A stretch of 64,000 nt of DNA from Nitrosopumilus sp. (GTDB lineage: Archaea > Thermoproteota > Nitrososphaeria > Nitrososphaerales > Nitrosopumilaceae). The notes under the pieces are model-generated. The model ran no database searches and was not told the origin of the DNA. It worked only from the letters and a program-made list of their open reading frames with translations. Where the stretch lies: NCBI GenBank assembly GCA_046758125.1, contig JBHHZR010000003.1, positions 1,875 to 65,874 of the forward strand, written 5' to 3'. This document shows, piece by piece, positions 3,436 through 29,131 of the stretch. The stretch's first letter is position 1. Each line of letters starts with the position of its first letter. Made by a program: the position numbers and the translations under genes.

Positions 3436-5199
3436 ATGTCGATCTCATTTAATCTTGATAAAAAACTCATTTTTTTAGTATTGGTTGTGTCAGTTGTTGC
3501 TCTTTCAATAACAGGATATCTAAGCTTCAATTATGCAGATCAGATTTTAAAGCAAAGAGCAGGAGAACAGTTAGTTGGAGAATCGACAGTACGTGGAGAA
3601 ACTCTAAGATTACTTTTTGAATCACGAATTGAACAGAATAATATTCTTGCAAGTGATCCAATGATTCAACTTTTAGTTTCAGAAATGAATGATGTTCCTA
3701 CAGAGAAATTAAAAAACATTAAAGAAGATAATCGTAGAGATTTTTTAATTCAAGTTCAAGCATTTCAAGAATTAATTGGATTCTCAATAGGGTTTGAGGA
3801 TGTAAAAATAATTGGTACAAATGGAAAAGTTTTCTTTTCTCTTGTGGGAATAACAGATGAAGATTTTTTTGAGAGTTCATTATTTCAAAGAGGATTAAAA
3901 GAATCTTTCATTAAATTTGAACCTACAGAATCAGGTAAAAAAATGATTGTTGTATCTCCAGTGTTTGCTAATGACAGCAAAATAGGAGATGAACCAATAG
4001 GAGTAATTATTTCAAGAATGAGAACAGCAACAATTGATAGTGTTTTACTAGAAAGAAGTGGATTAGGAGAAACTGGAGAAGCATACATTGTCAGTGATCA
4101 GTCTTTGATGTTATCAGAATCTAGATTTATTGAAAATACAATATTCCAACAAAAAGTGGATACTCTAGGTGTTCAGAAATGCTTCAATGAAGGACAAGAA
4201 CATGTGGGAATTTATCCTGATTATAGAGGCATCTCAATTTTTGGATCTTCATATTGTGCAAAAGATTTAGGAATTGTTTTGCTTGTTGAAATTGATGAAG
4301 CAGAAGTAGAAAAACCAATTGATATACTAGAAGATAGAATTTTTCAAACGGGAATAGCAATCACTTTGGGAATGGCAATTGTTGCTTTTGTAATTTCAAA
4401 GTCACTTTCAAGACCTCTTATCAAATTAAGAGATGCAGCAAAAAATATTGAGAGTGGAAATTTTGAGGTCAGAACCAATATCAAAACAAGAGATGAAATT
4501 GGAGAATTATCTTATGCATTTGATTCAATGGCACAAAAACTACAAGATTCATTAATTGAGATCAAGGAAAAAGAAGAAGTTATCAAACAACAAGAAGAGA
4601 TTTTGTTGAAATTTTCTCAACATGTTCAAAATGATTGTGTAGGAGTAATTGATATGAAAGATTCTACTAAAATTTCAGAAAAATTATCAGATCAAAGTAT
4701 TACCAAAATGTATGAAATCTTTCTAAACTTTATGGCAAAAATTGTTCGTGAACACAATGGTGAAGTAATAAAAAATATTGGTGATGCTTTGATGTTTAGA
4801 TTTCCAAATGTTGATCCTAATGATTCTAAAGCAATAAAAAATGTTTTAGAATGTTGTTTGCTAATGATTGAATCGCATGATAAATTAAAAGAACAACTTA
4901 ATGCAGAAGATCTGCCTACAATAGATTATAAGATAAGTGCAACATATGGTTCTGTAAAAGTAGCTGAAAGTACTACTTCTAACATAGCTGATATTTTTGG
5001 ACCTACAGTTAATCGCTGTTTTAAGATCAATTCACTTTGTCCAGGAAATAGCGTAGTAGTTGGTATCAATTTGTATGAAATGGCAAAAGATTTTCCTGAA
5101 TACGAATTAATGCAGTTTTGTTCTATTGAAATGAAACAAAAATATGGTTACAGTATATTTGAGCTTAAAAGAAAAATTGTTAACTCCAAAAATGATTAA
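3436..5199 (+). CDS. Membrane sensor with Cache-like extracellular domain, HAMP and class III adenylate/guanylate cyclase domain
   Basis: Two TM helices; HAMP (SRPLIKL...DEIGELSYAFDSM); cyclase motifs IDMKDST, IKNIGDALM and DIFGPTVN. Confidence 0.85.
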   Translation: MSISFNLDKKLIFLVLVVSVVALSITGYLSFNYADQILKQRAGEQLVGESTVRGETLRLLFESRIEQNNILASDPMIQLLVSEMNDVPTEKLKNIKEDNRRDFLIQVQAFQELIGFSIGFEDVKIIGTNGKVFFSLVGITDEDFFESSLFQRGLKESFIKFEPTESGKKMIVVSPVFANDSKIGDEPIGVIISRMRTATIDSVLLERSGLGETGEAYIVSDQSLMLSESRFIENTIFQQKVDTLGVQKCFNEGQEHVGIYPDYRGISIFGSSYCAKDLGIVLLVEIDEAEVEKPIDILEDRIFQTGIAITLGMAIVAFVISKSLSRPLIKLRDAAKNIESGNFEVRTNIKTRDEIGELSYAFDSMAQKLQDSLIEIKEKEEVIKQQEEILLKFSQHVQNDCVGVIDMKDSTKISEKLSDQSITKMYEIFLNFMAKIVREHNGEVIKNIGDALMFRFPNVDPNDSKAIKNVLECCLLMIESHDKLKEQLNAEDLPTIDYKISATYGSVKVAESTTSNIADIFGPTVNRCFKINSLCPGNSVVVGINLYEMAKDFPEYELMQFCSIEMKQKYGYSIFELKRKIVNSKND

Positions 5200-6347
5200 T
5201 TTTTAGAAAATCTAAATTTTGATGTCCAACTACCTTTTTGTTTAGTTGTCTTTAATGAAAGGTTGTCTAGCATGGCATATGTAATTGTAAATCCATTTCC
5301 TACCATAGTAGCATCTTTTGGATAATTTTCTTTGTCAGGAACAAATTCATCTGCTAAATCTTTAATTTTTTTAGTTTTTAGATCAAATAGTCGTATTTTT
5401 TTTCCATTTTCAAGTTTAATGATTGCATCACCACTTAATCCTTGAATTGAATAGGTTTCAAAGAATCTAATTGAACCACCTTCTTTTAATTCAATTATAG
5501 AATCATAGGTAAGTTTTCCCCCATAAAACAAAACTTCACGTGCAGATATTGTTACATTATCTTCTACATTAAGTACAATTATTGTATCTGCATCAAGCGA
5601 GACAGTATTGACAACATTTTCAGCAACAATTTTTCCATTTGGAGCTGAAACATGTGTTCTATTTTCTTGAATCTGAAAAACACCAACTCTTCCATCTGGA
5701 TCCTCTACTCTATATTTTCTTCCAAAGATGTTTCCTACAATAATATTTCCATTATCTGCTATAATTGCAGCACCATTTTCAATTTTGTATTTATTTTCTA
5801 AAGCATCAAGAAATTTGAAATCTCCTTTAGTTAGATGTATGTTTGTTTGAAATTCTTGTGTCCATGATGGACTAGAGATATTTCCTTGCATGATTATTGG
5901 ACCATCATAAGTAAGACTTCCTGCCATAAAATTTCCTTTTATTGATAAAGCACCGTTTGCTTTTCTTTCTAGTTCAATTTCACCTAAAGTTTTTGATCCA
6001 AACAATCTTGTTGCCGTTGCATTTGATCTGTTCAAAGCAGCTGCCCATTCTTCTGCTGATTTCATTTCTTTTGAAAGTTGTTGGCCTAGGATCTGATTTT
6101 TTCTTCTAACATCAGCTTCAGAATCACCTGAATATACCCTAGAATTTTTTAGCTTTTCAATATCAGTTTCAGGATATTTTTTTCCAATCTTGAGATCCTC
6201 GTATGCTTGTTTAATTTTGATAAATTGTTCATTTTCACCACCACGATCTGAATGATATTGTAAGGCTAATCGTCTAAATGCATCTCGAATTTCTTTCTCA
6301 GTAGAATCTTCTAAAATTCCTAAAATATCATAATTACTTTCTACCAT
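5196..6347 (-). CDS. DnaJ (J-domain) protein with uncharacterised C-terminal domain
   Basis: NYDILG...EIRDAFRRLALQYHSDR...FIKIKQAYE J-domain; the HPD motif reads HSD. Confidence 0.8.
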   Translation of the reverse strand: MVESNYDILGILEDSTEKEIRDAFRRLALQYHSDRGGENEQFIKIKQAYEDLKIGKKYPETDIEKLKNSRVYSGDSEADVRRKNQILGQQLSKEMKSAEEWAAALNRSNATATRLFGSKTLGEIELERKANGALSIKGNFMAGSLTYDGPIIMQGNISSPSWTQEFQTNIHLTKGDFKFLDALENKYKIENGAAIIADNGNIIVGNIFGRKYRVEDPDGRVGVFQIQENRTHVSAPNGKIVAENVVNTVSLDADTIIVLNVEDNVTISAREVLFYGGKLTYDSIIELKEGGSIRFFETYSIQGLSGDAIIKLENGKKIRLFDLKTKKIKDLADEFVPDKENYPKDATMVGNGFTITYAMLDNLSLKTTKQKGSWTSKFRFSKN

Positions 6348-6449
6348 ATTTCCCCCAACAGTAATAATTTTTCATTCCTATACTTGTACATTATTACATC
6401 AATGAAATATCAAGGATATAGAATAAAAATGGAAAAAGTTCAGATTGAA

Positions 6450-6872
6450 CTATTTTACAACTAGTGTTGGGATCTTTGTTTTGTGCATGACATAATTTGA
6501 TGTACTTCCAAGAAATGTTTCTTTTGCACCACCCATTCCTCTTGCACCAATTACAATCATGTCATATTTCCCTTTTTGAGCAAATTTAACAATCTCAGAA
6601 CCAGTATGACCACCAGCAGTTTTGTACTTGAAAGTGATACCAGATCTTTGTGCTTTTTGCATTGCAGGGCCAATTGCTTTAGCAGCTTTATTTTGTGCAT
6701 CATCTCGCATTTTTTTGGTATATTTTATTCCTGCTGCTAAAGGTAAGTGAAATACATAAAATCCTGTAATTTCAGCACCGCTGCCTTTTGCAATATCAAT
6801 TGCTCTTTCTAATCCCCTGTTAGAATTTTTTGAACCATCAACAGGAACTAGAATTTTTTGGACATTTGCCAT
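6450..6872 (-). CDS. Universal stress protein (Usp)
   Basis: KILVPVDGS...DMIVIGARG...FLGSTS. Probable start at 6872 (track start 6890). Confidence 0.92.
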   Translation of the reverse strand: MANVQKILVPVDGSKNSNRGLERAIDIAKGSGAEITGFYVFHLPLAAGIKYTKKMRDDAQNKAAKAIGPAMQKAQRSGITFKYKTAGGHTGSEIVKFAQKGKYDMIVIGARGMGGAKETFLGSTSNYVMHKTKIPTLVVK

Positions 6873-6996
6873 ATTTGGAAGTTTAATCATTACAATATAA
6901 AAAGAGTCATCAATTTCCAGAGTTGAAATTCAAATTATAATCAGAATTGGAAATTATATCTTCAATTTTTATACAAAAAATTTATCAAATTAAGAA

Positions 6997-7851
6997 TTGT
7001 CAGTAATTAATATTTCAAAAAAACCAATTTCAATCATAAAAAATTCTACAATTTCTGATTGCATCAGAATGCTCTTAAACACTAAGATTAGTAGATTAGT
7101 TGTTATAGATGATGGAAAACATATTGGAATAATAACTGAAAAAGACATAGGATTGTTTTTGTTTTCAGAAACTACAAAACAAGGGCTTGATGATATTCTA
7201 ATTACTACTATTATGAAACCAATTGAATATGTAAACAAAGAGATCACTCCAGAAGAATCAGCTAAAATTATGATTGAAAAAGGAATTAGTTCCTTAGCTG
7301 TTGGAAAAAACGAACAAGTAGAAGCAATTTTTACTAAAAGTGATCTTGTAAAGTATCTTGTTGATAACTTTTCAGATAAAAAGAAAGTTGTTGATTTTAT
7401 GACTCATGACTATGAGTTTACTCATACTGCTGCTCCTTTGTATAAAGTTGTTAGAAAGATGTTAGAAAAGAAGATCTCTAGGATTATTGTAAAAAATCAA
7501 AATGAAGAACCAGTAGGAATAATATCATTTAGAAATTTGTTTAGGATCTCAATTGAGCTTGGAAGTGAGGAGGATTATTCTGGATTCAGTCTTTCTGAAA
7601 ATATTAGGCGTGGATTTCTATCAAAAGAAGGGTTTGGCAATATTTCATTAGCAAGAGACATTATGACAAAAGGACTAATCACGGTAAAATTTAATGATGA
7701 TTTAGTTGATGCATGTAAAATTCTCTTGGATAATAATGTTAGTGGCTTAGTAGTATTAGATGGAAATGAATCAATTGCGGGTATTATCAGTAAGACTGAC
7801 ATTATCAAAGCATTACAAGATAATATTTCTGAAGAAACAATAAATCAATGA
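6997..7851 (+). CDS. CBS-domain protein (four CBS repeats)
   Basis: Repeated VV..G...GIIT/S..D CBS motifs; TTG start. Confidence 0.85.
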   Translation: MSVINISKKPISIIKNSTISDCIRMLLNTKISRLVVIDDGKHIGIITEKDIGLFLFSETTKQGLDDILITTIMKPIEYVNKEITPEESAKIMIEKGISSLAVGKNEQVEAIFTKSDLVKYLVDNFSDKKKVVDFMTHDYEFTHTAAPLYKVVRKMLEKKISRIIVKNQNEEPVGIISFRNLFRISIELGSEEDYSGFSLSENIRRGFLSKEGFGNISLARDIMTKGLITVKFNDDLVDACKILLDNNVSGLVVLDGNESIAGIISKTDIIKALQDNISEETINQ

Positions 7852-7870
7852 CTAAATCATAATTACAATC

Positions 7871-8554
7871 ATGAAATGGCATTTTGATGATTTTATTTAT
7901 GGTGCAATTGATGGAGCTGTAACGACTTTTGCAATTGTTGCTGGTGTTGTTGGAGCTGGATTACCATCAGGAATAATTTTGATTCTAGGTTTTGCAAATT
8001 TGTTTGCAGACGGATTTTCAATGGCAGCAGCAAATTATCAGGCATCAAAGGCAAGAAATGAATTTGTTCAGATGAAAAGAAGACAAGAAGAATGGGAAAT
8101 TGATAATCTAGAGGAACAAGAGAGAGATGAAATAAGAGACATTTACAAAGAAAAAGGATTCAAAGATGAATTATTAGAAGAAGTAGTTAGAATTATCACA
8201 TCTAGAAGAAAGGTTTGGGTAGATACAATGATGAAAGAGGAATTAGGATTAATTGAAGATGAGAAAAATCCACTAGATAGTTCTTTTAGTACTTTTGTTG
8301 GTTTTAATTTGATTGGATTAATTCCATTAATACCATTTATGATTTTTATGATAATTGGTATTAAACCAAATTCAGAAGCATTTGTTTATTCTACAATATC
8401 AGTAAGTGCTGCATTCTTTCTAGTTGGAATGATCAAAGGAGAAATTGTTAAAAAATCAAAAATTCGTGCAGGGATCTATACACTTATCATAGGTGGAATT
8501 GCAGCAATTGTAGCGTATCTAGTAGGATATGGATTAAATTTTCTAGTTAGTTAG
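7871..8554 (+). CDS. VIT1/CCC1-family Fe/Mn transporter
   Basis: [18 protein letters not shown] and [14 protein letters not shown] motifs; Glu-rich cytoplasmic loop. Confidence 0.92.
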
Positions 8555-8565
8555 GAAAATAGTAT

Positions 8566-9861
8566 ATGTCTGAATTAAAGCGTCACATGGGACTTTTTCA
8601 TCTAACTATGTATGGTGTTGGATTAATTCTTGGTGCAGGGATCTATGTCTTAATTGGAGAAACTGCTGGATTTGCAGGAAATTCTATGTGGATTTCCTTT
8701 TTGTTAGGTGCAATTGTTGCAATATTTGCTGGATTAAGTTATGCTGAACTTTCAGCTTTGTTTCCAAAAGCAGCTGCAGAATACACTTTTGTAAAAAATG
8801 CATTTAAGAATAATTTTTTTGGTTTCATAATTGGTTGGTTAACAGCAATTACATCAATTATAGTTGCTGCAACTGTAGCTCTAGGATTTGGAGGATATCT
8901 TACTCAGTTTATTGAAATACCCATCACAGTTGGAGCAATTATTCTAATTGGAATTTTGTCGATAGTAAATTTTATTGGAATCAAAGAATCTGCTTGGGCA
9001 AATACCATTTTTGCAATAATTACTGCGGGGGGATTGATACTCATAATATTTTTAGGATTCTCAACAGAACCTGTTGAATCCATAGATTATTTTGAAATGC
9101 CAAATGGTATTACAGGAATAATTCTCGCATTTGTTTTGATATTTTTTGCATTTATTGGATTTGAAGATATGGCAAATGTTGCAGAAGAGGTTAGAAGGCC
9201 TCACAAAACGATTCCTAGAGCCATTATCTTATCAATAGTAATTACTGGAGTAATTTACATTCTAGTTTCATTATCTGTAATTCGAATTTTAAATTGGGAA
9301 GAATTAGCTGTTTCATCAGCCCCTCTTGCTGATGTTGCACATTCGGTTTTAGGAACAAATGGAAGCATTGCTTTATCACTAATTGCGCTTTTTGCAACCG
9401 CAAGTACTGTTTTGATTACATTGGTTGCGGGAGCACGAATCATGTATGGAATGGCAAAAAGTAACTCATTACCACAATTTTTAGGCAGAATTCATCCTAA
9501 AACAAAGACTCCATGGATTGCAGTAATTGGAATATTAGTTACTTCAGTAGGATTTGCTTTTGTTGGAGATATTGTAATTGTTGCAAATATCGTTGTTTTT
9601 GCTGTAGTTATTACATTTGCAGCAATTAATTTAGCAGTAATTGTTCTACGATATACAGAACCAGTTTTAGAGAGACCTTTTAGAGTTCCAGTAAATATTG
9701 GAAAGTTTCCAATATTACCGTTATTTGGATTTGGAACTACAGTCTATATGGCATTACAGTTTAAAATTGAAGTTGTACTTGTAGGTATAGCAATTATTGG
9801 GATTGGTATGGTTTTGTATGTAATTTTGAAAAAAAGAAATAATTTTATAGACTCTAGTTAA
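8566..9861 (+). CDS. APC-family amino acid permease
   Basis: GLILGAGIY TM1 and FAFIGFED TM6 motifs; about 12 hydrophobic segments. Confidence 0.92.
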   Translation: MSELKRHMGLFHLTMYGVGLILGAGIYVLIGETAGFAGNSMWISFLLGAIVAIFAGLSYAELSALFPKAAAEYTFVKNAFKNNFFGFIIGWLTAITSIIVAATVALGFGGYLTQFIEIPITVGAIILIGILSIVNFIGIKESAWANTIFAIITAGGLILIIFLGFSTEPVESIDYFEMPNGITGIILAFVLIFFAFIGFEDMANVAEEVRRPHKTIPRAIILSIVITGVIYILVSLSVIRILNWEELAVSSAPLADVAHSVLGTNGSIALSLIALFATASTVLITLVAGARIMYGMAKSNSLPQFLGRIHPKTKTPWIAVIGILVTSVGFAFVGDIVIVANIVVFAVVITFAAINLAVIVLRYTEPVLERPFRVPVNIGKFPILPLFGFGTTVYMALQFKIEVVLVGIAIIGIGMVLYVILKKRNNFIDSS

Positions 9862-10514
9862 TTTCTTTTAGATTTTGTTAGCGCAACAATTGCAATAGTA
9901 ATTCCTAGAATACCAACTCCAATTCCAATATATCCAACATTCATCTGTTGTTTACTTTCTTCAAGATTTGCTACTGTATCTTTTAATTCATTAATATCTT
10001 CGATTAATGCAGTATGACCATCAATCATTTGTTGTAGTGTAATATCTGATGGTTCAGGAAATTCTATGTAAGCACGTTCTGCAACTTTTGGAGGATGCAT
10101 TGATAGACTAATTGGAGTGTCTTTAATTGTTCCTAATATGTTTGCTTGATAAAACCCAGAAACAGTTGGATTGACAAATGCATGATACTTTCCTGGAAGA
10201 TTATGATCAGGAGAAATATGAAGTGTTATGCTTTCATCTTTGTATATTAGTTTTATCTTAACTGTTTCTTGTAATCCCTCAATTCCATTTTGAAACTTTT
10301 GAGATCCTGCACATTCGATTGGTTTAGTAATTTCAGGACATGAAAATAAGGGACTAACATAGAATTCAATTGCGTTTGTTTCTCCTGAAACAACTGGCTC
10401 ATTCATCCAACCAATTTCTACCCTATAATCTCCAACAGCGTCAATTGTATGTCCATATGCTACACCAATTAAGCCTGGAATAATTAACAAAACCAGTAAT
10501 AGATAAGATTTCAA
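9858..10514 (-). CDS. Exported, membrane-anchored hypothetical protein
   Basis: Signal peptide ending AYG-H, short coiled coil, C-terminal TM helix; TTG start. Confidence 0.65.
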   Translation of the reverse strand: MKSYLLLVLLIIPGLIGVAYGHTIDAVGDYRVEIGWMNEPVVSGETNAIEFYVSPLFSCPEITKPIECAGSQKFQNGIEGLQETVKIKLIYKDESITLHISPDHNLPGKYHAFVNPTVSGFYQANILGTIKDTPISLSMHPPKVAERAYIEFPEPSDITLQQMIDGHTALIEDINELKDTVANLEESKQQMNVGYIGIGVGILGITIAIVALTKSKRN

Positions 10515-10593: not shown

Positions 10594-12039
10594 TTATGCA
10601 TCTGCATACATTGAAACTTCCCAAGCTGTGGGAGTTTGTGCAAATGCAGTATATTCTTTGTATTTTAGTTCAGTATATTTACCAAGAAAATCTTTGGTGA
10701 AAACCTCTTCTAAGAATGCAGAATCACTTTGTAAAGAATCAAGTGCTCCTTTTAGTGATACTGGCAGAGATCCAATGTTATACTCATGTTTCTTTTCAGC
10801 AGTAAGTTTGTAGACATTTTCTTCAATTGGATCACCAGGATCAATTTTATTTTTAATTCCATCTAGTCCTGCTAATAATAATGCAGATTCTAAAAGATAG
10901 ATATTTGCAGTAGGATCAGGTACACGATATTCTAATCTTTTACTTTTTTCTTGATTTCTAGTGTACATTGGAACTCTGATTGCAGCAGATCTATTACCTA
11001 ATCCCCAACAAACATTGACAGGTGCTTCAAATCCTGGAACTAGACGTTTGTATGAATTTGTTGTAGGGTTTGATATTGCACAAAGAGCTGATGCATGACT
11101 CAAAATTCCACCAACATAATATCTTCCAGTTTGACTCATCTGAGCTACTTTATCATCTTGATCATACATTGCATTTGTATTTTCGTTCCACAAGCTCTGA
11201 TGAGTATGCATTGCAGATGCATTATCACCAAAAATTGGTTTTGGCATAAATGTTGCAACTTTATTTTTTCGTTTAGCTTTGACTTTGACTAAATTTTTCA
11301 CTCCAATTACATGATCAGCCATCTGGATCATTTCATCATATTCAAGATTAATTTCACATTGACCAGAAGTTGCGACTTCATGATGTTCTGCTTCTATTCT
11401 AATCCCAAAGAAATTATACAAATCATCACATACATCCTTTCTAAACCCCTCTAGAGTATCCTTAGGTTGAGATGGGTAATATCCTTCTTTCAAATTAATT
11501 GCAGTACTAACATTTCCTTTAGCCCAAGGTGATTCTTTAGATTCAATAGAATATCCCGAACCACCGTATGATTGGGTTGCAGCATATGGAGATGGATAAA
11601 CATTGATAGTATCAAAAACAAAAAATTCTATTTCAGGTCCCCAGTTTGTATGAGTTAATCCAAACTCTTTGAGCTTCTTTGATGCTTTATGTGCAATTCC
11701 TCTTGAATCCCTATTGTATCTTGAACTTTCATCAGTACTTCCATCATACAAATCACAGAAGATTCGAGCATTTCTTCTATTGCTAGGATCATAATCAGAT
11801 GGAAGAATTTTAAATGAGGTTGGGTCTGGCATCAAAATCATATCAGAGTGATTTACAGATTTGAATCCAACAATTGAGCTTGCATCCAATTTCTCAAGGC
11901 CGTTTACAAAACTGTTTTCATCAATTGCATAGCTTGGCATACCGACGTTATGCAGTTCACCGAAAATATCTACAAACCAAAAATCAATAAATGAAATTTT
12001 TTCAGCTTTTATGGTTTGTAGCACTTGTTCTGCGTTCAA
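10594..12039 (-). CDS. glnA: Glutamine synthetase type I paralogue (variant active-site loop)
   Basis: GPEIEFF, HHEVA.SGQCEI, FMPKP, NSYKRLVPGFEAP and RLEYRVPDP motifs. NASAMH replaces NGSGMH. Confidence 0.9.
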   Translation of the reverse strand: MNAEQVLQTIKAEKISFIDFWFVDIFGELHNVGMPSYAIDENSFVNGLEKLDASSIVGFKSVNHSDMILMPDPTSFKILPSDYDPSNRRNARIFCDLYDGSTDESSRYNRDSRGIAHKASKKLKEFGLTHTNWGPEIEFFVFDTINVYPSPYAATQSYGGSGYSIESKESPWAKGNVSTAINLKEGYYPSQPKDTLEGFRKDVCDDLYNFFGIRIEAEHHEVATSGQCEINLEYDEMIQMADHVIGVKNLVKVKAKRKNKVATFMPKPIFGDNASAMHTHQSLWNENTNAMYDQDDKVAQMSQTGRYYVGGILSHASALCAISNPTTNSYKRLVPGFEAPVNVCWGLGNRSAAIRVPMYTRNQEKSKRLEYRVPDPTANIYLLESALLLAGLDGIKNKIDPGDPIEENVYKLTAEKKHEYNIGSLPVSLKGALDSLQSDSAFLEEVFTKDFLGKYTELKYKEYTAFAQTPTAWEVSMYADA

Positions 12040-12119
12040 TTGATAATTTTAGAAAATCAATTTACTAATGTTATCATGTAAAGATAGATTTGACAAGATG
12101 GTCAGGTAAATTATGAAAA

Positions 12120-13466
12120 TTAACTGCTTTTTGATGTCTTGAGTGCATTTAATTCATCTTCAAAGAAGAATTTGTCACCAAATGCAGGTTTTAAATCATC
12201 TAACCAAATCGCATTTTCGTCGTATTTTGCAAAAAATGGTTCTTTAACCCAGTTTGGGTTTCGCCCCTGCAAAAATCTTAAAACAAGTAATTTTTGATCG
12301 TTAAATTCTGCAGTTCCAACAACCTGAACTTTTCCAGGGGTTGCTGACATACTAGGTCCGCGTACGGTTCTTGCCAACCCACTAACAGAAGAATATGCTT
12401 GGCTAAAGATTTCATATGCTTTGACTAAAGGAACTCCGAAATAATGCTGAGCGCCTGTGTCTCTTACAACAAACATGTAGTAGGGTATACAACCAAGTTG
12501 AACTTGTTTGGTCCACATTTTTGACCACATTTCTGCATCGTCATTAATATGAGCTAAAAGTGGAGATTGTGTTCTAATTTGAGCACCAGTTTTTCTAACT
12601 TCTTTAATTGCAGATTTTACGGCATTTGTTGACAGTTCATTAAGATGATTAAAGTGCGCCATAATTGCAAGGTGTAACCCGTTATCAGTTATTTTTCTAA
12701 AAATATCTAACATTTCTTGTGAGTCAGCATCTGTCAAAAATTTGTAAGGCCAATAAGAAAGAGCTTTTGTTCCAATTCTGATTGTTTTGAGGTTTGGAAG
12801 TTTAGATTCGATAAGAGCATCTATATATTTTGAGAAAATCTTTGCTTTCATAATCATAGGATCACCACCGGTAAATAAGATATCAGAAATTTCTGGATGT
12901 TCTGAAACATATTGTATTAGTTGTTCACCTTCTTGCATAGCAAATTTCATTTCATCCATTCCAACAAATTGTGGCCATCGAAAACAAAAACTACAATATG
13001 CATGACAAGTTTGACTTTGACTAGGGAAAAAGAGGCAGGTTTCTTTGTATTTATGTTGCATTCCATAAAGTTTAGTTCCATCTTTTAGTGTTGGAACATT
13101 TAGTTCCATTTGTCCAGCTGGATGTGGATTTAATTGTAAACGAATTTCATTTGCAACAGATGCAATTTCTTTTTTATCAGAATTATTTCTTAAAACAGAT
13201 TCCATTTTTTTGTAATGTTCTGGTTTTAACATTTCCTTTTGAGGAAAAGTCAATACATACATTGGATCAGTAGGTATGTTTTTCCAATCAATTAATTGTT
13301 CAACAACATAATTATTTGCTTTAAATGGCAAAACATTTCCTACAACTTCCATTTCAAATTGAGTTTCTTTTGAAATATTCTGGATTTGTGGGAGAGTGCG
13401 GAAATTTGATAATGTGTATGATTTTAATGATGGATTCTCATCCCAAACTGATTCTTGATAGGTCAT
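12120..13466 (-). CDS. kamA: KamA-family radical-SAM amino acid 2,3-aminomutase (possibly glutamate 2,3-aminomutase)
   Basis: CHAYCSFCFR (CxxxCxxC), LFTGGDP, RIGTK, PYYMF, and the PLP Lys in PGK. Confidence 0.85.
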   Translation of the reverse strand: MTYQESVWDENPSLKSYTLSNFRTLPQIQNISKETQFEMEVVGNVLPFKANNYVVEQLIDWKNIPTDPMYVLTFPQKEMLKPEHYKKMESVLRNNSDKKEIASVANEIRLQLNPHPAGQMELNVPTLKDGTKLYGMQHKYKETCLFFPSQSQTCHAYCSFCFRWPQFVGMDEMKFAMQEGEQLIQYVSEHPEISDILFTGGDPMIMKAKIFSKYIDALIESKLPNLKTIRIGTKALSYWPYKFLTDADSQEMLDIFRKITDNGLHLAIMAHFNHLNELSTNAVKSAIKEVRKTGAQIRTQSPLLAHINDDAEMWSKMWTKQVQLGCIPYYMFVVRDTGAQHYFGVPLVKAYEIFSQAYSSVSGLARTVRGPSMSATPGKVQVVGTAEFNDQKLLVLRFLQGRNPNWVKEPFFAKYDENAIWLDDLKPAFGDKFFFEDELNALKTSKSS

Positions 13467-13596
13467 TTAGTAAATAGTACTCAAACCCTTGTTAAAGGTT
13501 ACATGTTTCTTACGCATAAAATTTTTTGAATTTGATTAGAATATGGGTTAACCTTTGTATTCTAGAACATAATTTTGGTTAGAATAGTGATTAAAC

Positions 13597-15336
13597 ATGG
13601 CTGAAGAAGAATTATCACAAATTTCTGTAGGGGAGTTTGAGACTGTTTCTGAGCTTTTAGCATCATCTGAGTCACTTCAATTAGCATTTTTCATTATGAT
13701 TGTAGGAATAATTGGAATAGTTATTGGGTATAGAAAATTTTCATCGTGGGTAGGTTCACAAAAATTCTATTATCAAAGACCTCATTTTTCAAGATTTGTA
13801 CGTAGATCTGTTCTGCCATTTTTTGCTATTGCGTTAATTACTGCAATTAATGTTTACATTCAAACTGGTGAATTATTAGGAGAAGATTTATCGCTAGTTC
13901 AAGGAGAGGATATATCTCCTCAAGAAACATTTGCAAAGATTCTCAATACTTTTAATATTTTAGTAATTGGCTATACAATTTCACATCTGATTCCAATTGT
14001 TCTTACTAAACGTGATAAATCCATCTTAGAAAAAGAGGATTTTGAAGCATGGTTTGAGATGAGAGGATTTGTTGATGATAAAGATGATCTATTTCATAAG
14101 CTGTACAAGTGGGTTCCACCAAAAATTACTCCTGAAGATATTGAAGAAGAAAAATTCCAAGAAATGCTCAAGACTGAAAAAGGAACGCAATACTTGGAAC
14201 AATTTCGAACAACAAAAGGTAATCCAATTGGAGGATATGAGAAATTAGTTGAAAATCCATTTGAAGAATGGAAGAAATCAGAACGTACAAAATATGAAAA
14301 ATATTTCCAAAATTGTATTACTGGTGAAAATCAATCTGGTAGAAAACTAAGACTTGGTGCAAAACCTGATGAGATATTTCCAATTGATATATGGCGAGAA
14401 GAGAAAAGAGTGCATGGTTATGAACCAATAATTCCAAGTTCACGTCCTCCTGGATATGCAAAAAAGAAAAGAGAAGGTATTCCAAAGTCTGCAAAACAAA
14501 TACTTCCTATAGGAATTTTCATTGCAACAATTTTGGGAGTTGTTGCATGGTGGGGAGTAGATTTGATTGTTATTGCAACAGCCACAGGAGGATTTTCAAT
14601 TGGTTTAGGTTTGGCATTACAAGAAACTATGCAGAATTATTTTGCTTATATCATGATTAGAAAAGACAAAATTTTCGTTGAAGGGGATAGAGTACAACTT
14701 GAGACTGGTTATAATGGATATGTGCATAAAATCACGCCTAGAGTAACATACATCAGGGATGCATTATACGAATCAATTGCAGTAATTCCAACTAGACAAT
14801 TAGTTTCTGCACAGATAATCAATTACACCAAAGAAAACAAACTTGTTCCAGCAGTTGTTAAAGTTGGAGTTTCTTATCTAAATAATCCTAGACAAGTTGC
14901 ATCAATTTTGGTGAAAGTTGGTAAGCGAGGAATGAAAGAGATTGTTGATGTAAAGGGCAGACATCTAGTAAGACAAAATAGATGTCCATATCTAAATCAA
15001 AATAAACCAAGTTGTGGTTGCGATAAAGAACTCCATGTAGAAATATCACAACCTGTTGTTAGATTTAATGATTTTAATGATTCATCACTTGATTTTTCAA
15101 TGTGGGTATATGTCAGAGATTATGGTGCTCAATTCAAAACAAAAACTGATTTGAGGATGATAATGTATGAAGAATTCAAGAAATATGATATTAGAATTCC
15201 ATGGCCAATTCGAACTGTCTATCAAGGAGATGAGAAGAAAGAATTTGAAGAGATTAGTCAATTAGATCCAGATAGAAATAAGGTAATTGAGGACTATGGT
15301 CTTGGGGATCTTGGACGTGGAGAAGGAGACGATTAG
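13597..15336 (+). CDS. mscS: MscS-family mechanosensitive channel with large insertions
   Basis: GLGLALQETMQNYFAYI...GDRVQL...GYVHKI...IPTRQLV...INYT MscS core; FNDFNDSSLDF C-terminal domain. Confidence 0.85.
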   Translation: MAEEELSQISVGEFETVSELLASSESLQLAFFIMIVGIIGIVIGYRKFSSWVGSQKFYYQRPHFSRFVRRSVLPFFAIALITAINVYIQTGELLGEDLSLVQGEDISPQETFAKILNTFNILVIGYTISHLIPIVLTKRDKSILEKEDFEAWFEMRGFVDDKDDLFHKLYKWVPPKITPEDIEEEKFQEMLKTEKGTQYLEQFRTTKGNPIGGYEKLVENPFEEWKKSERTKYEKYFQNCITGENQSGRKLRLGAKPDEIFPIDIWREEKRVHGYEPIIPSSRPPGYAKKKREGIPKSAKQILPIGIFIATILGVVAWWGVDLIVIATATGGFSIGLGLALQETMQNYFAYIMIRKDKIFVEGDRVQLETGYNGYVHKITPRVTYIRDALYESIAVIPTRQLVSAQIINYTKENKLVPAVVKVGVSYLNNPRQVASILVKVGKRGMKEIVDVKGRHLVRQNRCPYLNQNKPSCGCDKELHVEISQPVVRFNDFNDSSLDFSMWVYVRDYGAQFKTKTDLRMIMYEEFKKYDIRIPWPIRTVYQGDEKKEFEEISQLDPDRNKVIEDYGLGDLGRGEGDD

Positions 15337-25626: not shown

Positions 25627-27087
25627 TTGCCCTATAAAGTTAGTCATGGAAAAGCGATCCAAGTAACATACTCACCAGATGAAGTTTTTGCAAGAATTCA
25701 GCATGAGGGAATTCAATTTATTGATCTACAATTTACAGGTCTTACAGGTCGTTTTCATCATACTACAATTTCAGCAAATACATTTACTCCTGAACAAATG
25801 CGGGATGGATTACCTAAACTAGATGGGTCATCAATTATTGGTTTTACTAGCATTGATGATTCAGATCTACTTTTAAAACCAGATCCAAATACATTTGCAA
25901 TTATTCCATGGATGACAGAAAACAAAACAGCCAGACTGCTTTGTGATGTTTATTGGGGAGAAAATAGAGGAAGATTATCAAGAGATCCTAGAGGAATTGC
26001 TCAAAAAGCAGAAGAATACACCAAATCTCAGGGATTTGATTTTAGTAATTGGGGTCCTGAGGTAGAATTCTTTGTTTTTGATAAAGTGTTTTGGGATGTT
26101 TTAACACCATACAAAGGACAATCTTATGCAATTGAATCAAAAGAAGCACCATGGAATCATGATGGTGATGGATATCCAATGGGATTACAAGAAGGATATT
26201 ATCCTAGTACACCACATGATACTCTTACACCATATAGAAATGAGTGTGTAAACATTCTCAACAAAAATTTTGGAATCTTGTGTGATAATCATCATCACGA
26301 GGTTGCAACTGCAGGACAATGTGAGATTGATATTAGATATGATCTTATGACTAATGCGGCAGATGCTGCACAAACTTACAAATATGTTATTAGAAACGTT
26401 GCAAAGAAATTTGGAAAAGTTGCAACAATGATGCCTAAACCAATAGCAATGGACTCAGGTTCTGGGATGCATGTTAATGTTAGTTTATGGAAAGGAAAAG
26501 ATAATGCATTTTATGATCCAGATGATGAGATTGAATTAAGTCAAATTGGCAGATATTTCTGTGGTGGAATTATTAATCATGCAAAAGCATTATCTGCAAT
26601 TTGTAATCCTACAACTAACTCATATCATAGATTAGTACCTGGATATGAAGCTCCAGCATACATTGCATGGAGCTCAGGAAATCGTTCAGCTATAGTAAGA
26701 GTTCCAAAACATCTTACAGGAAAAGAGTATTCACATCTAAAACGACTTGAATTTAGAGCACCTGATCCTTCATCAAATCCATATCTTGTTTTTGCATCTG
26801 TAACAGCTGCGGGAATGGATGGAATAAAAAAGAAGATGGATCCTGGGGATCAGGTACGTGATGATATCTTTAAGATGACTAGATCCGATAGGGCAAAAAG
26901 AGGTATAGGCGTTCTTCCAAAAAGTCTTGGGGAAGCATTAGATGAATTAGAAAGTGATAGAAAATTCCTTAGCCCAATTTATACAAGTGATGTTATAGAT
27001 AAAATTATAGAATTAGAAAGAAGAGATCAACGTGAGATATCTATTAGACCACATCCTCACGAGTTTTATCTTTACTTTGATGTTTAG
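25627..27087 (+). CDS. glnA: Glutamine synthetase type I
   Basis: LDGSS, GPEVEFF, HHEVATAGQCEI, GSGMH, NSYHRLVPGYEAP and RLEFRAPDP motifs; TTG start. Confidence 0.95.
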   Translation: MPYKVSHGKAIQVTYSPDEVFARIQHEGIQFIDLQFTGLTGRFHHTTISANTFTPEQMRDGLPKLDGSSIIGFTSIDDSDLLLKPDPNTFAIIPWMTENKTARLLCDVYWGENRGRLSRDPRGIAQKAEEYTKSQGFDFSNWGPEVEFFVFDKVFWDVLTPYKGQSYAIESKEAPWNHDGDGYPMGLQEGYYPSTPHDTLTPYRNECVNILNKNFGILCDNHHHEVATAGQCEIDIRYDLMTNAADAAQTYKYVIRNVAKKFGKVATMMPKPIAMDSGSGMHVNVSLWKGKDNAFYDPDDEIELSQIGRYFCGGIINHAKALSAICNPTTNSYHRLVPGYEAPAYIAWSSGNRSAIVRVPKHLTGKEYSHLKRLEFRAPDPSSNPYLVFASVTAAGMDGIKKKMDPGDQVRDDIFKMTRSDRAKRGIGVLPKSLGEALDELESDRKFLSPIYTSDVIDKIIELERRDQREISIRPHPHEFYLYFDV

Positions 27088-27415: not shown

Positions 27416-29131
27416 TTACATCATTCCGCCCATGTCAGGCATTCCACCCATTCCAGGTGGCATTCCACCCATTCCAGGTGGCATTCCACCCATTCCAGGT
27501 GGCATGCCTCCTTCTCCTCCACCAGGTGGGCCACCTGCAGATTTTTGGGTAGCAATCACATCATCAATTCTAAGAATCATACATGCAGCTTCAGAAGATG
27601 CAGAGACAACCTGAAGTTTAACTGCAAGGGGTTCAATAATATCACTTGATTTCATATTAGCAATCTTTCCTTTCATTACATCAATTCCAGTCCATTTTTC
27701 TCCTTTCTGTTGTTTTGAACGAAGAAGTGTTAGTGTGTCAATTGGATCCATTCCAGCATTTTCAGCTAACGTTAGTGGAATTGATTCTAAAGCATCAGCA
27801 AATTTTTCTGCAGCTAACTGTTCTCGTCCTTCCAGAGATTTTGCCCATCCTCTAAGTTTTGTTGCAGCATATGTCTCAGGAGCACCTCCACCTGCAACGA
27901 TTTCAGGTTTTTCGATTACGTCTTTTACAACCATTAATGCATCATGAACAGAACGTTCAACTTCATCTACTACTCTTTGTGAACCACCTCGAAGTAGAAG
28001 TGTAACAGATTTTGGATGTTTACATCCTTCTACAAATACCCATTTATCTTCTTCAATTTTTCTTTCTTCAACAAGATCTGCACTACCTAGATCTTTCTCG
28101 AAAAGATCATCAAGATTTGTAACTATTCTAGCACCTGTTGCTTTTGCAAGTTTAGTAAGATCACTTTCTTTTATTCGTCTAACTGCAATAATTCCAGCTT
28201 TTGCTAGATAGTGTTGTGCCATATCATCAACTCCTTTTTGACATAAAACTACATTTGCGCCAGAACCAATAACTTTGTCAACCATTGTTTTTAACATACG
28301 ATTCTCTTCATCTAGGAATGATTTCATTTGTTGAGGATTTGAAATGTTAATTTTTGCATCAGTTTCAGTCTTACTGATTTCTAATGCGGTGTTAATTAAT
28401 GCAATTTTTGCTTCAGTAATTTTTCTAGGCATGCCTCCATGAACAATCTCTTTGTCAAGAACAATGCCTTGAATAATCATCGAGTCTTTGATAGAACCTC
28501 CAGCCTTCTTTTCTACTTTGATATCATCAATATCAACATCATAACTTTCAGCATCTTTTTCTGAAACAGCTAAAACAGATTTTACAACAATTTCTGCAAG
28601 TTGATCAGAATCTTTTCTAACAAGTTTAGTTTGCATTGATGTCTTTGCAATTTTAGTTAGAATGTTTTTGTCATTTGCAGAAATATTGTCTGCAATACTT
28701 TGAAGAAATTGTTTTGCTTTCTTTCCAGCTTTTCTATAACCATCAACAATAATTGTTGGATGAACATCTTGATCAATTAATGATTCAGCATTTTCTAGTA
28801 ATGCACCAGCCAAAACAACTGCTGAAGTTGTACCATCACCAACTTCATTATCTGTAGTTTTTGAAATTTCAACAAGCATTTTTGCGGCTGGATGTTGAAC
28901 ATCAATTTCTTTTAGAATAGTAGCACCATCATTTGTAATAGTAACATCACCTAAAGAATCAACTAACATCTTATCCATACCTCGCGGACCTAGGCTAGTA
29001 TGAACAATTTCAGCTATAATTTTAGATGCAGCAATGTTATTCTTTTGTGCATCTCTACCCTTAGTTTCTGAACCACCCTCCTTTAGTAATACAACTGGCA
29101 TATTTCCTTTCGAAGTAGCTTGCATGCCCAT
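27416..29131 (-). CDS. ths: Thermosome (group II chaperonin) subunit
   Basis: [28 protein letters not shown] and LRIDD motifs; GGM tail. Confidence 0.97.
27440..27502 (-). repeat. Three exact 21-bp tandem repeats encoding (PPGMGGM)3 in the chaperonin tail
   Basis: CATTCCACCCATTCCAGGTGG at 27440, 27461 and 27482. Confidence 0.95.

What the first reader, a model, noticed from the sequence alone, without database searches (positions are those of the whole stretch)
10594..15336. Candidate beta-glutamate/beta-glutamine osmolyte module: aminomutase + second GS + MscS
Seen: the KamA-family gene lies 80 bp upstream of, and co-oriented with, a second glutamine synthetase; an MscS channel is divergently transcribed across a 130-bp gap. 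A separate GS sits at 25627, and no beta-lysine acetyltransferase (ablB) is nearby. Established: glutamate 2,3-aminomutase makes beta-glutamate; GS can amidate beta-glutamate to beta-glutamine, an osmolyte of halophilic methanogens; MscS releases solutes on osmotic downshock. Inference: a compact make-and-release osmolyte system with a dedicated beta-glutamine synthetase. I cannot check how widely this has been described in AOA.
Basis: partly seen in the sequence, partly recalled or inferred. Interest (0 to 1): 0.82.

Follow-up and report, generated by a model that had tools for sequence, protein, structure and literature searches.

The report
Beta-glutamate osmolyte genes in Nitrosopumilus
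A marine ammonia-oxidizing archaeon carries a radical-SAM aminomutase that most likely makes the osmolyte beta-glutamate, paired head-to-head with a pressure-release channel, while the idea that the neighbouring second glutamine synthetase makes beta-glutamine is not supported so far.

Summary
The window is a Nitrosopumilus genome.

The KamA-family protein is not a lysine 2,3-aminomutase. Both Asp residues that hold lysine's epsilon-amine in the solved enzyme are missing, and the first is replaced by Arg335. It belongs to a separate 'R-D-T' clade of KamA enzymes. One member, 46% identical, sits in a Streptomyces PKS cassette of the kind that starts macrolactams from beta-glutamate. Published metabolomics puts beta-glutamate at 730 mM in N. 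maritimus. I read the gene as the AOA glutamate 2,3-aminomutase.

The MscS gene is divergently adjacent in 73 of 77 informative Nitrosopumilaceae species. The two promoters share an 8-mer found nowhere else in the 64 kb.

The second GS is a weaker link:
- It is absent in 18 of 76 species that keep the aminomutase.
- Chorismate synthase separates it from the aminomutase in more divergent loci.
- It has a conserved spacer of its own and keeps all canonical catalytic residues.
- Its only peculiarity is an invariant N-A-S-A-M-H substrate loop.

Verdict: a new member of known kinds. The core pair is well supported by inference; the beta-glutamine step is speculative. No enzymology exists, and I found no paper assigning this gene in AOA.

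The parts
12120..13466 (-). KamA-family radical SAM / PLP aminomutase, inferred glutamate 2,3-aminomutase (beta-glutamate synthase)
   Evidence: - C154/C158/C161 (CxxxCxxC) are invariant; R163, aligned to LAM Arg134, and K379, the inferred PLP lysine, are nearly invariant. The roles of LAM Arg134 and Lys337 are from my memory of the 2A5H structure paper.
- LAM Asp293 aligns to R335.
- The AF2 model has pLDDT 93.9, and its best PDB fold match is LAM 2A5H, E=1.6e-18.
- It scores below the cutoff of every NCBIfam KamA equivalog.
- It is 46% identical to the aminomutase in a Streptomyces macrolactam-type cassette.
13597..15336 (+). MscS-family mechanosensitive channel, about five hydrophobic segments, with a 164-aa highly charged insert between the third and fourth; inferred solute release valve
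   Evidence: - PF00924 and PF21082.
- Residues 302-442 align to E. coli MscS 72-209 and to MscK.
- Hydropathy profile and charged insert at 137-300.
- Divergently adjacent to KamA at under 300 bp in 73 of 77 informative species loci.
13467..13596 (.). Divergent intergenic region with two conserved promoter-like blocks that share the 8-mer TAACCTTT (13494-13501 on the - strand, towards KamA; 13549-13556 on the + strand, towards MscS)
   Evidence: - Alignment of 69 loci shows two blocks at 80% or more column identity.
- TAACCTTT occurs only twice in the 64 kb, both here and in mirror orientation.
- No Rfam family matches here.
- The function as a shared regulatory or BRE/TATA element is inferred.
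10594..12039 (-). GS2: type I glutamine synthetase paralog with a TTG start; facultative neighbour, role unresolved (ordinary GlnA isozyme or possibly a beta-glutamate amidating enzyme)
   Evidence: - TIGR00653 at 513.9 bits, above the 429 cutoff.
- 44% identical to GS1.
- Canonical metal, ammonium and glutamate residues are present.
- The N-A-S-A-M-H loop is invariant in 56 of 56 orthologs, against N-G-S-G-M-H in Salmonella and Synechocystis.
- Present downstream of KamA in 58 of 76 species.
12040..12119 (-). KamA-GS2 spacer with conserved blocks (ACCTGAC just after the KamA stop; ATTAGTAAA about 25-35 nt upstream of the conserved TTG start); probable separate GS2 promoter
   Evidence: The spacer is 67-98 bp in 51 loci and carries conserved blocks; sequence. 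The promoter function is inferred.
25627..27087 (+). GS1: the more canonical GlnA paralog, shown for context (likely housekeeping GS)
   Evidence: TIGR00653 at 531 bits. It scores higher than GS2 against solved GS structures, for example 380.6 against 361.7 bits to 3NG0.

Best explanation
The core is a two-gene osmolyte unit of marine Nitrosopumilaceae.

The KamA-family enzyme (radical SAM [4Fe-4S] cluster plus PLP) moves the amino group of L-glutamate from C2 to C3. This makes beta-glutamate, a non-proteinogenic anionic solute that these archaea accumulate to very high concentration. The divergently transcribed MscS-type channel opens when membrane tension rises after osmotic downshift and lets such solutes out. 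The two promoters share a conserved element, which suggests common control.

GS2 is a genuine, conserved type I glutamine synthetase paralog that usually lies just downstream, behind its own promoter-like spacer. It is dispensable for the unit. Its role is open: most likely a second ammonia-assimilating isozyme, possibly one that also amidates beta-glutamate.

Shown:
- gene order and its conservation;
- family membership and fold of the aminomutase;
- the active-site substitutions;
- transcription of relatives of all three genes in seawater.

Inferred:
- the substrate of the aminomutase;
- the solute passed by the channel;
- co-regulation of the two genes.
For: Aminomutase:
- The CxxxCxxC motif, R163 (aligned to LAM Arg134) and the inferred PLP lysine K379 are conserved. 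The fold matches LAM 2A5H.
- LAM Asp293 aligns to Arg335 by phmmer, by profile and by MAFFT. Asp330 aligns to Ser372 in my ungapped by-eye extension. An acidic pocket for the distal amine has become a basic one.
- The protein falls in an 'R-D-T' clade. That clade includes a 46%-identical Streptomyces enzyme flanked by type I PKS, a proline-iminopeptidase-family hydrolase, a PLP 'aminotransferase' and an adenylation enzyme. This matches the cassette in which IdnL4 makes beta-glutamate and IdnL3 decarboxylates it (PMC11350588).
- Another clade member lies beside a Glu/Leu/Phe/Val dehydrogenase and CoA-transferase/MaoC/CoA-lyase genes. Another lies beside a divergent BCCT osmolyte transporter.

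Metabolite:
- Beta-glutamate is the most abundant identified metabolite of N. maritimus SCM1, at 730 mM (PMC8269262).

Linkage and expression:
- MscS is divergent within 300 bp in 73 of 77 species. It stays adjacent in L073, where the PRPP synthase neighbour is missing, and lies co-directionally upstream of KamA in L067.
- TAACCTTT occurs only in these two promoters in the 64 kb and is conserved across 69 loci.
- Metatranscriptome contigs cover all three genes of a related locus.

Against lysine: there is no ablB-like GNAT among the ORFs scanned from about 2.3 to 24.4 kb of the window.
Against: - There is no biochemical or genetic test of this protein or of any close ortholog.
- It scores far below the curated model for bacterial glutamate 2,3-aminomutase (TIGR04368, 89.9 bits against 650).
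- I could not compare it with the experimentally supported archaeal enzyme MmarC7_1783 or with IdnL4 itself, because neither sequence was obtainable.
- Other R-D-T clade members sit in NRPS, type III PKS and hydrazine-synthetase-like clusters, and one is fused to a Lys/Orn-type N-monooxygenase. The clade's substrate is therefore not proven uniform.
- Nitrosopumilaceae genomes are broadly collinear here. PRPP synthase, a methyltransferase and RNase Z are conserved next to MscS almost as often as MscS is next to KamA. Adjacency alone is weak evidence of coupling.
- The shared 8-mer was found post hoc. Its total count in the window (2) is not above chance (4.4 expected); only its placement is unusual.
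Confidence: 0.62

Rival explanations
1. This is a three-gene module in which GS2 is a dedicated beta-glutamine synthetase. It amidates the beta-glutamate made by the aminomutase, giving a neutral osmolyte that MscS releases.
For: - GS2 lies within 300 bp downstream of KamA and is co-oriented in 53 of the 58 species that have it. It stays within 3.1 kb where other genes intervene.
- The N-A-S-A-M-H loop is invariant in 56 of 56 GS2 orthologs. Solved canonical GSs have N-G-S-G-M-H and GS1 has S-G-S-G-M-H. 'DASS' replaces 'DGSS' in the Asp50 loop in 51 of 56.
- These loops contact the amino end of glutamate in Salmonella GS. This last point is from my memory of the structural literature and was not tested here.
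- A GS does make beta-glutamine in Methanohalophilus portucalensis (PMC1224877).
Against: - GS2 is absent within 6 kb downstream in 18 of 76 species that retain KamA (17 of them also retain MscS). The absences fall in several different gene contexts, so they reflect several independent events.
- Chorismate synthase sits between KamA and GS2 in the more divergent loci L073 and L079.
- The spacer has conserved promoter-like blocks and a conserved TTG start.
- All canonical catalytic, metal and ammonium residues are kept, and GS2 passes the GlnA equivalog model.
- Ala at these loop positions is tolerated in bona fide GSs, according to the PROSITE GS ATP-site pattern (from memory).
- None of the eleven bacterial homolog contexts I examined has an adjacent GS. 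One has a GS about 2.5 kb away on the opposite strand.
- The one AOA metabolome I could read highlights beta-glutamate and does not mention beta-glutamine.
- In M. portucalensis the enzyme was the cell's glutamine synthetase, not described as a separate paralog.
Confidence: 0.2
2. The aminomutase acts on another amino acid (lysine, arginine, glutamine, 2-aminoadipate or an unknown). It feeds something other than the beta-glutamate pool. Beta-glutamate in AOA would then come from another route.
For: - Every curated KamA equivalog model is missed, so no specificity is assigned by homology.
- Clade relatives occur in varied natural-product clusters, including fusion to a Lys/Orn-type N-monooxygenase.
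- A CoA-dependent route to beta-glutamate was once proposed for methanogens (PMC1224877).
Against: - A basic Arg at the distal binding position argues against the cationic substrates lysine and arginine.
- There is no ablB-like acetyltransferase nearby.
- EpmB-type EF-P modification is a bacterial system (general knowledge).
- The macrolactam-type cassette context points to glutamate.
- According to the title cited and my memory of the abstract of Tunckanat et al. 2022, a radical SAM glutamate 2,3-aminomutase does make beta-glutamate in Methanococcus. The paper is not held.
- No second KamA paralog lies in the 64 kb.
Confidence: 0.13
3. The adjacency is inherited synteny with no functional coupling. 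MscS is a general emergency valve, GS2 is a general nitrogen-assimilation isozyme, and the aminomutase simply sits between them.
For: - The whole neighbourhood (RNase Z, methyltransferase, PRPP synthase, MscS, KamA, GS2, unk218) is collinear across most of the 80 loci.
- PRPP synthase is missing next to MscS in only one locus that has enough flank to judge.
- Bacterial homologs show no MscS neighbour.
- An AOA salinity study reports constitutive expression of mechanosensitive channels in two freshwater/terrestrial strains (PMC13037477).
Against: - The MscS-KamA pair persists where flanks differ (L073, and L067 with MscS co-directional upstream), while GS2 and other neighbours come and go.
- The two divergent promoters share a conserved 8-mer that is unique in the window.
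- There is precedent: in N. maritimus an MscS-type gene is linked to the ectoine/hydroxyectoine genes (Widderich et al. 2016, cited in PMC5924519; the gene linkage itself is from my memory).
Confidence: 0.25

Closest known systems
IdnL4-type glutamate 2,3-aminomutase of 3-aminobutyrate-starter macrolactam clusters (incednine and relatives)
   Same: It is full-length homologous: 46% identity over 413 residues to the aminomutase in a Streptomyces cluster with the same accessory set (PLP enzyme, adenylation enzyme, proline-iminopeptidase-family hydrolase, type I PKS). The R-D-T and G-P-x-M-S-x-x-x-G-K motifs are shared. The proposed reaction is the same, L-Glu to beta-Glu (PMC11350588).
   Different: The AOA gene has no decarboxylase, PKS or adenylation partner, so its product would be the end product and serve as a solute. 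The IdnL4 sequence itself could not be fetched, so orthology rests on cluster architecture.
Archaeal glutamate 2,3-aminomutase MmarC7_1783 of Methanococcus maripaludis (Tunckanat et al. 2022, Biochemistry 61:1077; cited; paper not held)
   Same: It is a radical SAM KamA-type enzyme that makes beta-glutamate as an archaeal osmolyte.
   Different: From my memory of the abstract, it carries an N-terminal extension of about 160 aa. The window protein aligns to LAM with only about 25 extra N-terminal residues. The closest relatives of the AOA protein are bacterial. No sequence comparison was possible.
Clostridioides difficile Eam (bacterial glutamate 2,3-aminomutase, NCBIfam TIGR04368)
   Same: Same superfamily and same logic of specificity: the two Asp residues that bind lysine's epsilon-amine are replaced. 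In Eam the replacements are Lys and Asn (my memory of Ruzicka & Frey 2007).
   Different: The window protein scores only 89.9 bits against the 650-bit cutoff, and its replacements are Arg and Ser. It is a different clade.
Lysine 2,3-aminomutase AblA/KamA with AblB (N-epsilon-acetyl-beta-lysine osmolyte pathway; structure 2A5H)
   Same: The fold, the cluster motif, the PLP lysine and the Arg aligned to LAM Arg134 are shared. The use of a beta-amino acid as an osmolyte is also shared.
   Different: Asp293 and Asp330 are not conserved, the TIGR03820 cutoff is missed (112.8 against 525.4), and there is no ablB.
ect-mscS linkage in Nitrosopumilus maritimus (Widderich et al. 2016) and the MscS-type glutamate exporter MscCG of Corynebacterium glutamicum
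   Same: An MscS-family channel is genetically tied to a compatible-solute biosynthesis gene in the same genus. In C. glutamicum an MscS-type channel passes glutamate. Both points are from my memory; the Widderich paper is only cited.
   Different: Here the channel is divergently transcribed rather than part of the biosynthetic operon. It carries a 164-aa charged insert. The solute would be an anion, beta-glutamate, rather than zwitterionic ectoine.
Methanohalophilus portucalensis glutamine synthetase acting on beta-glutamate
   Same: A type I GS that can make beta-glutamine (PMC1224877).
   Different: The review describes that enzyme as the organism's glutamine synthetase, not as a separate paralog linked to an aminomutase. 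No sequence features for beta-glutamate use are defined, so GS2 cannot be tested for membership.

Membership tests
KamA family radical SAM aminomutases | CxxxCxxC [4Fe-4S]/SAM motif | tested here: met
   C154, C158 and C161 are invariant in 42 family members.
KamA family radical SAM aminomutases | PLP-binding lysine (LAM Lys337) and the Arg aligned to LAM Arg134 | tested here: met
   K379 and R163 are nearly invariant. The K379 to Lys337 register comes from an ungapped by-eye extension beyond the HMMER alignment. The assigned roles of the LAM residues are from memory.
KamA family radical SAM aminomutases | LAM-like fold over the whole chain | tested here: met
   AF2 pLDDT 93.9. 2A5H is the top hit at E=1.6e-18, TMq 0.61 and 395 aligned columns. 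The next radical SAM fold scores E=1e-6.
KamA family radical SAM aminomutases | NCBIfam TIGR00238 curated cutoff | tested here: not met
   132.4 bits against a cutoff of 199.2. This is a divergent clade that the model does not capture.
Lysine 2,3-aminomutase (AblA/KamA) | Asp293 and Asp330, which bind the lysine epsilon-ammonium | tested here: not met
   The aligned residues are Arg335 and Ser372.
Lysine 2,3-aminomutase (AblA/KamA) | Adjacent beta-lysine acetyltransferase ablB (osmolyte operon) | tested here: not met
   No GNAT among the ORFs scanned from about 2.3 to 24.4 kb of the window.
Bacterial glutamate 2,3-aminomutase Eam (TIGR04368) | Equivalog model score | tested here: not met
   89.9 bits against a cutoff of 650.
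Glutamate 2,3-aminomutase (function) | A basic or neutral pair in place of the two LAM Asp residues | tested here: met
   Arg335 and Ser372. The Arg is conserved throughout the R-D-T clade. That this pattern defines glutamate specificity is from the literature as I remember it, not tested here.
Glutamate 2,3-aminomutase (function) | Conversion of L-glutamate to beta-glutamate | not testable with these tools
   Needs an enzyme assay. Indirect support comes from 730 mM beta-glutamate in N. maritimus.
IdnL4-type aminomutase | Sequence orthology to IdnL4 | tested here: inconclusive
   46% identity to an aminomutase in a cluster with macrolactam starter-unit architecture.
Archaeal EAM (MmarC7_1783 type) | N-terminal extension of about 160 aa (feature recalled from the abstract) | tested here: not met
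   The window protein is 448 aa. LAM residue 84 aligns to residue 109, an offset of about 25 aa.
Type I glutamine synthetase (GlnA) | Equivalog model plus catalytic, metal and ammonium residues | tested here: met
   TIGR00653 at 513.9 bits, above 429. The residues aligned to Salmonella GS D50, S53, E129, E131, Y179, E212, E220, H269, H271, R321, E327, R339, R344, E357 and R359 are present; I read these by eye from the alignment.
Beta-glutamine synthetase activity | Preference for beta-glutamate as substrate | not testable with these tools
   Only a conserved Gly-to-Ala pair in the substrate loop. No sequence signature for this activity is defined.
MscS family channels | Pore-lining TM3 plus the beta domain | tested here: met
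   PF00924 and PF21082. Residues 302-442 align to E. coli MscS 72-209.
Osmolyte biosynthesis / MS-channel gene coupling (ect-mscS type) | Co-transcription with the biosynthetic genes and osmotic induction | tested here: inconclusive
   The genes are divergent, not an operon, but share a promoter motif. There are no expression data under salinity shifts; presence in metatranscriptomes is all that is shown.

The most novel reading that the evidence does not exclude
GS2 could be a beta-glutamate-adapted glutamine synthetase. Its invariant Gly-to-Ala changes in the substrate loop would reposition the amino group. GS2-bearing Nitrosopumilaceae could then switch between anionic beta-glutamate and neutral beta-glutamine. 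The aminomutase and the channel would be co-regulated through the shared TAACCTTT element. That would be a tunable, three-part osmolyte rheostat in one of the ocean's most abundant organisms, built around an aminomutase gene shared with marine bacteria across domains.
Probability: 0.18. Interest if true: 0.7.

Novelty: new member of a known kind. Interest (0 to 1): 0.5.

Why it matters
Beta-glutamate is reported as the most concentrated identified metabolite in N. maritimus, and particulate beta-glutamate increases with depth in the ocean (PMC8269262).

Ammonia-oxidizing archaea make up a large share of deep-ocean prokaryotes. The gene that makes this solute would therefore be:
- a marker for a sizeable pool of organic carbon and nitrogen;
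- a handle on AOA salinity adaptation;
- an example of a radical SAM enzyme of a usually oxygen-sensitive class working in an obligate aerobe.

I found no paper in the searchable library that assigns this gene in AOA, so the assignment is directly testable and useful. The kinds of parts involved (glutamate aminomutase, MscS valve, GS paralog) are all known, which limits the surprise.

Tried and rejected
Function assignments rejected:
- Lysine 2,3-aminomutase / N-epsilon-acetyl-beta-lysine pathway: the Asp pair is missing and there is no ablB.
- EpmB-like or arginine aminomutase: far below the cutoffs, and a basic residue sits at the distal site.

Searches that led nowhere:
- The long (about 520-610 aa) relatives such as P0223 might have been the methanogen EAM type. 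Their named homologs are bacterial: Bacteroidales, Balneolaceae, Geopsychrobacter. P0197 is on a bacterial contig.
- I could not obtain Ruzicka & Frey 2007, Tunckanat 2022, Takaishi 2013, Robinson 2001 or Walker 2010.
- The database names of the Streptomyces-clade homologs are generic, so there is no direct IdnL4 label.
- No Rfam element lies in the locus.
- The sigma-70 promoter and terminator scan is uninformative for an archaeon.
- No RNA runs exist for this exact genome. Metatranscriptome contigs on a related locus are too short to show whether KamA and GS2 are co-transcribed.
- Most other bacterial contexts (P0272, P0124, P0127, P0139, P0145, P0129, Mycetohabitans, Nocardia) gave no osmotic or GS link.

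Not assessable:
- Whether GS2 presence tracks habitat salinity. Record titles give mixed habitats on both sides.
- Whether GS2-less genomes carry GS2 elsewhere.

Full report
**Observation.** The three ORFs are exactly as described:
- a GS paralog at 10594..12039 (-);
- a KamA-family radical SAM gene at 12120..13466 (-), 80 bp upstream of it and co-oriented;
- an MscS-family gene at 13597..15336 (+), across a 130-bp divergent gap.

Pfam and NCBIfam confirm the families. The other GS, at 25627..27087, is 44% identical to the first and also passes the GlnA equivalog model. No GNAT/ablB-like gene lies among the ORFs scanned from about 2.3 to 24.4 kb of the window. The neighbours are PRPP synthase, a methyltransferase, an RNase Z-like beta-lactamase-fold protein, Sir2, a CCA-adding enzyme, an APC permease, VIT1, a CBS protein, Usp and a DnaJ-domain protein. 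The window is a Nitrosopumilus genome. The aminomutase is 92% identical to that of Ca. N. koreensis AR1. The DNA is held almost completely by three hydrothermal-vent metagenome runs.

**The aminomutase.** It is a true KamA-type enzyme:
- The CxxxCxxC cysteines are invariant. The Arg aligned to LAM Arg134 and a Lys in the position of the PLP lysine are nearly invariant in an alignment of 42 relatives.
- An AlphaFold model (pLDDT 93.9) matches lysine 2,3-aminomutase 2A5H over 395 columns at E=1.6e-18. The next radical SAM fold scores about twelve orders of magnitude worse.

It nevertheless misses the curated cutoff of every KamA model, including the lysine, arginine, EpmB and bacterial glutamate aminomutases. 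In three independent alignments, LAM Asp293 aligns to Arg335. Extending the alignment without gaps puts LAM Asp330 on Ser372. Asp293 and Asp330 are the residues that hold lysine's epsilon-ammonium. As I remember Ruzicka & Frey 2007, C. difficile glutamate 2,3-aminomutase has Lys and Asn there. A basic residue at this site fits an acidic side chain and argues against lysine or arginine.

**The clade.** An exhaustive search found 325 clusters (at 50% identity) with E<1e-30. A tree separates an 'R-D-T' clade, which holds the AOA proteins, from relatives that lack the Arg. The nearest non-AOA member (64% identical) is on a Bacteroidota-like contig. Another (57%) lies next to a divergent BCCT osmolyte transporter.

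Homologs that are 43-50% identical over the full length sit on actinobacterial and Burkholderia megaplasmids. The most telling is in Streptomyces sp. NBC_00334. Its aminomutase is 46% identical over 413 residues and is flanked by:
- type I PKS genes;
- a proline-iminopeptidase-family hydrolase;
- a PLP 'aminotransferase';
- a stand-alone adenylation enzyme.

This matches the starter-unit cassette of 3-aminobutyrate macrolactams. There IdnL4 converts L-glutamate to beta-glutamate and IdnL3 decarboxylates it (PMC11350588). An Amycolatopsis homolog lies with a Glu/Leu/Phe/Val dehydrogenase and CoA-transferase/MaoC/CoA-lyase genes.

Other members are in NRPS, type III PKS or hydrazine-synthetase-like clusters, and one is fused to a Lys/Orn-type N-monooxygenase. 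I do not claim that the clade has one substrate.

**The metabolite.** Heal et al. 2021 found beta-glutamic acid to be the most abundant identified metabolite of N. maritimus SCM1, at 730 mM. They also found it increasing with depth in the ocean (PMC8269262). A radical SAM glutamate 2,3-aminomutase makes beta-glutamate in Methanococcus (Tunckanat et al. 2022, cited; details are from my memory of the abstract). No paper in the searchable library links an aminomutase to Nitrosopumilus or names the AOA gene.

**Linkage.** A scan of GTDB species genomes found at least 586 with a relative of the aminomutase. The best 80 loci are all Nitrosopumilaceae, with KamA 78-91% identical.

MscS, in the 77 loci with enough upstream flank:
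- divergent within 300 bp in 73;
- about 1.6 kb away in 2;
- co-directional in 1;
- absent in 1.

GS2, in 76 informative loci:
- downstream in 58, and within 300 bp in 53 of those;
- absent within 6 kb in 18.

The absences occur in several different contexts. In some loci a DnaJ-like gene follows KamA directly. In others the unk218 gene follows directly. In the more divergent loci L073 and L079, chorismate synthase sits between KamA and GS2.

One caveat applies. This family is broadly collinear here, and PRPP synthase is almost as constant a neighbour of MscS as MscS is of KamA. Adjacency alone is modest evidence.

**Non-coding sequence.** The divergent intergenic region has two blocks conserved in 69 loci. 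Each block carries TAACCTTT pointing toward its gene. The block on the KamA side ends 27 nt before the ATG, and the one on the MscS side ends 40 nt before it. This 8-mer occurs nowhere else in the 64 kb. I read the blocks as similar BRE/TATA-type promoters or a shared regulator site; that reading is inference, and the motif was noticed post hoc. The KamA-GS2 spacer (67-98 bp in 51 loci) has its own conserved blocks and a conserved TTG start, which suggests a separate GS2 promoter. No Rfam family matches in the locus.

Seawater metatranscriptomes contain contigs on MscS, KamA and GS2 of a related locus, so all three genes are expressed in situ. None of the listed contigs bridges the KamA-GS2 spacer.

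**GS2.** It keeps the canonical metal, ammonium, glutamate and ATP residues of Salmonella GS. It scores slightly lower than GS1 against solved GS structures. Its one consistent peculiarity is an N-A-S-A-M-H loop, invariant in 56 of 56 orthologs. Canonical enzymes have N-G-S-G-M-H and GS1 has S-G-S-G-M-H. In addition, 'DASS' replaces 'DGSS' in 51 of 56. These loops lie near the amino end of glutamate in Salmonella GS (from memory), so this is a lead and not a test. A GS does make beta-glutamine in M. portucalensis (PMC1224877).

**Verdict.** The best-supported reading is a two-gene core: a glutamate 2,3-aminomutase making beta-glutamate, and an MscS valve. A GS paralog of unresolved role lies next to them in most but not all species. 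This is a new member of known kinds. It is useful because it names a testable gene for a major marine metabolite. The beta-glutamine step that made the finding most exciting is not supported by the evidence available here.

Noticed in passing
window 9858-10514 (-): A 218-aa protein with a signal peptide and a C-terminal membrane anchor and no Pfam or NCBIfam hit. It follows GS2 in most Nitrosopumilaceae loci, and follows KamA directly where GS2 is missing.
   Followed up: partly
window 5196-9861: A block of stress-related genes lies between unk218 and a DnaJ-domain gene: APC amino-acid permease, VIT1, a four-CBS protein and Usp. In other lineages the DnaJ-like gene directly follows GS2 or KamA, so this block looks like an insertion.
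   Followed up: partly
L083 7001-8383 (P0272); tree: The closest non-AOA homolog of the aminomutase (64% identical) is on a Bacteroidota-like contig with T9SS-tail and OmpA genes. It is sister to the AOA clade, which suggests cross-domain gene transfer.
   Followed up: partly
L081 6337-8985 (P0128); L089 9001-15795 (Rhodococcus pDK3): R-D-T clade aminomutases occur in clusters with a SidA-type N-monooxygenase (fused to the aminomutase in P0128), a cupin, a MetRS-like ligase, a saccharopine-dehydrogenase-like protein and ATP-grasp enzymes. This resembles hydrazine-forming machinery. A beta-amino acid may be a partner there.
   Followed up: no
L090 5014-17218 (Amycolatopsis sp. AA4 plasmid): An aminomutase homolog lies beside a PLP aminotransferase, a Glu/Leu/Phe/Val dehydrogenase, a CoA transferase, MaoC dehydratases and CoA ester lyases. 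This could be a glutamate/beta-glutamate catabolic or C5-dicarboxylate pathway.
   Followed up: no
L073 1633-3825 (-): In this rearranged Nitrosopumilaceae locus, a 730-aa fusion of a D-Ala-D-Ala-ligase-like ATP-grasp domain and an M20 peptidase domain replaces PRPP synthase next to MscS.
   Followed up: no
window 3436-5199 (+): A Cache-HAMP-adenylate/guanylate cyclase sensor protein lies a few kb from the locus.
   Followed up: no
window 13597-15336, residues 137-300: The MscS homolog has a 164-aa insert between the third and fourth hydrophobic segments with 34 Lys/Arg and 32 Asp/Glu. E. coli MscS is only 286 aa and aligns to residues 302-442 alone, so it has no such insert.
   Followed up: partly
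window 27416-29131 (-): A 571-aa ORF that looks like a thermosome/chaperonin subunit (read by eye, not scanned). It ends in a repeated GGMPPGM tail.
   Followed up: no
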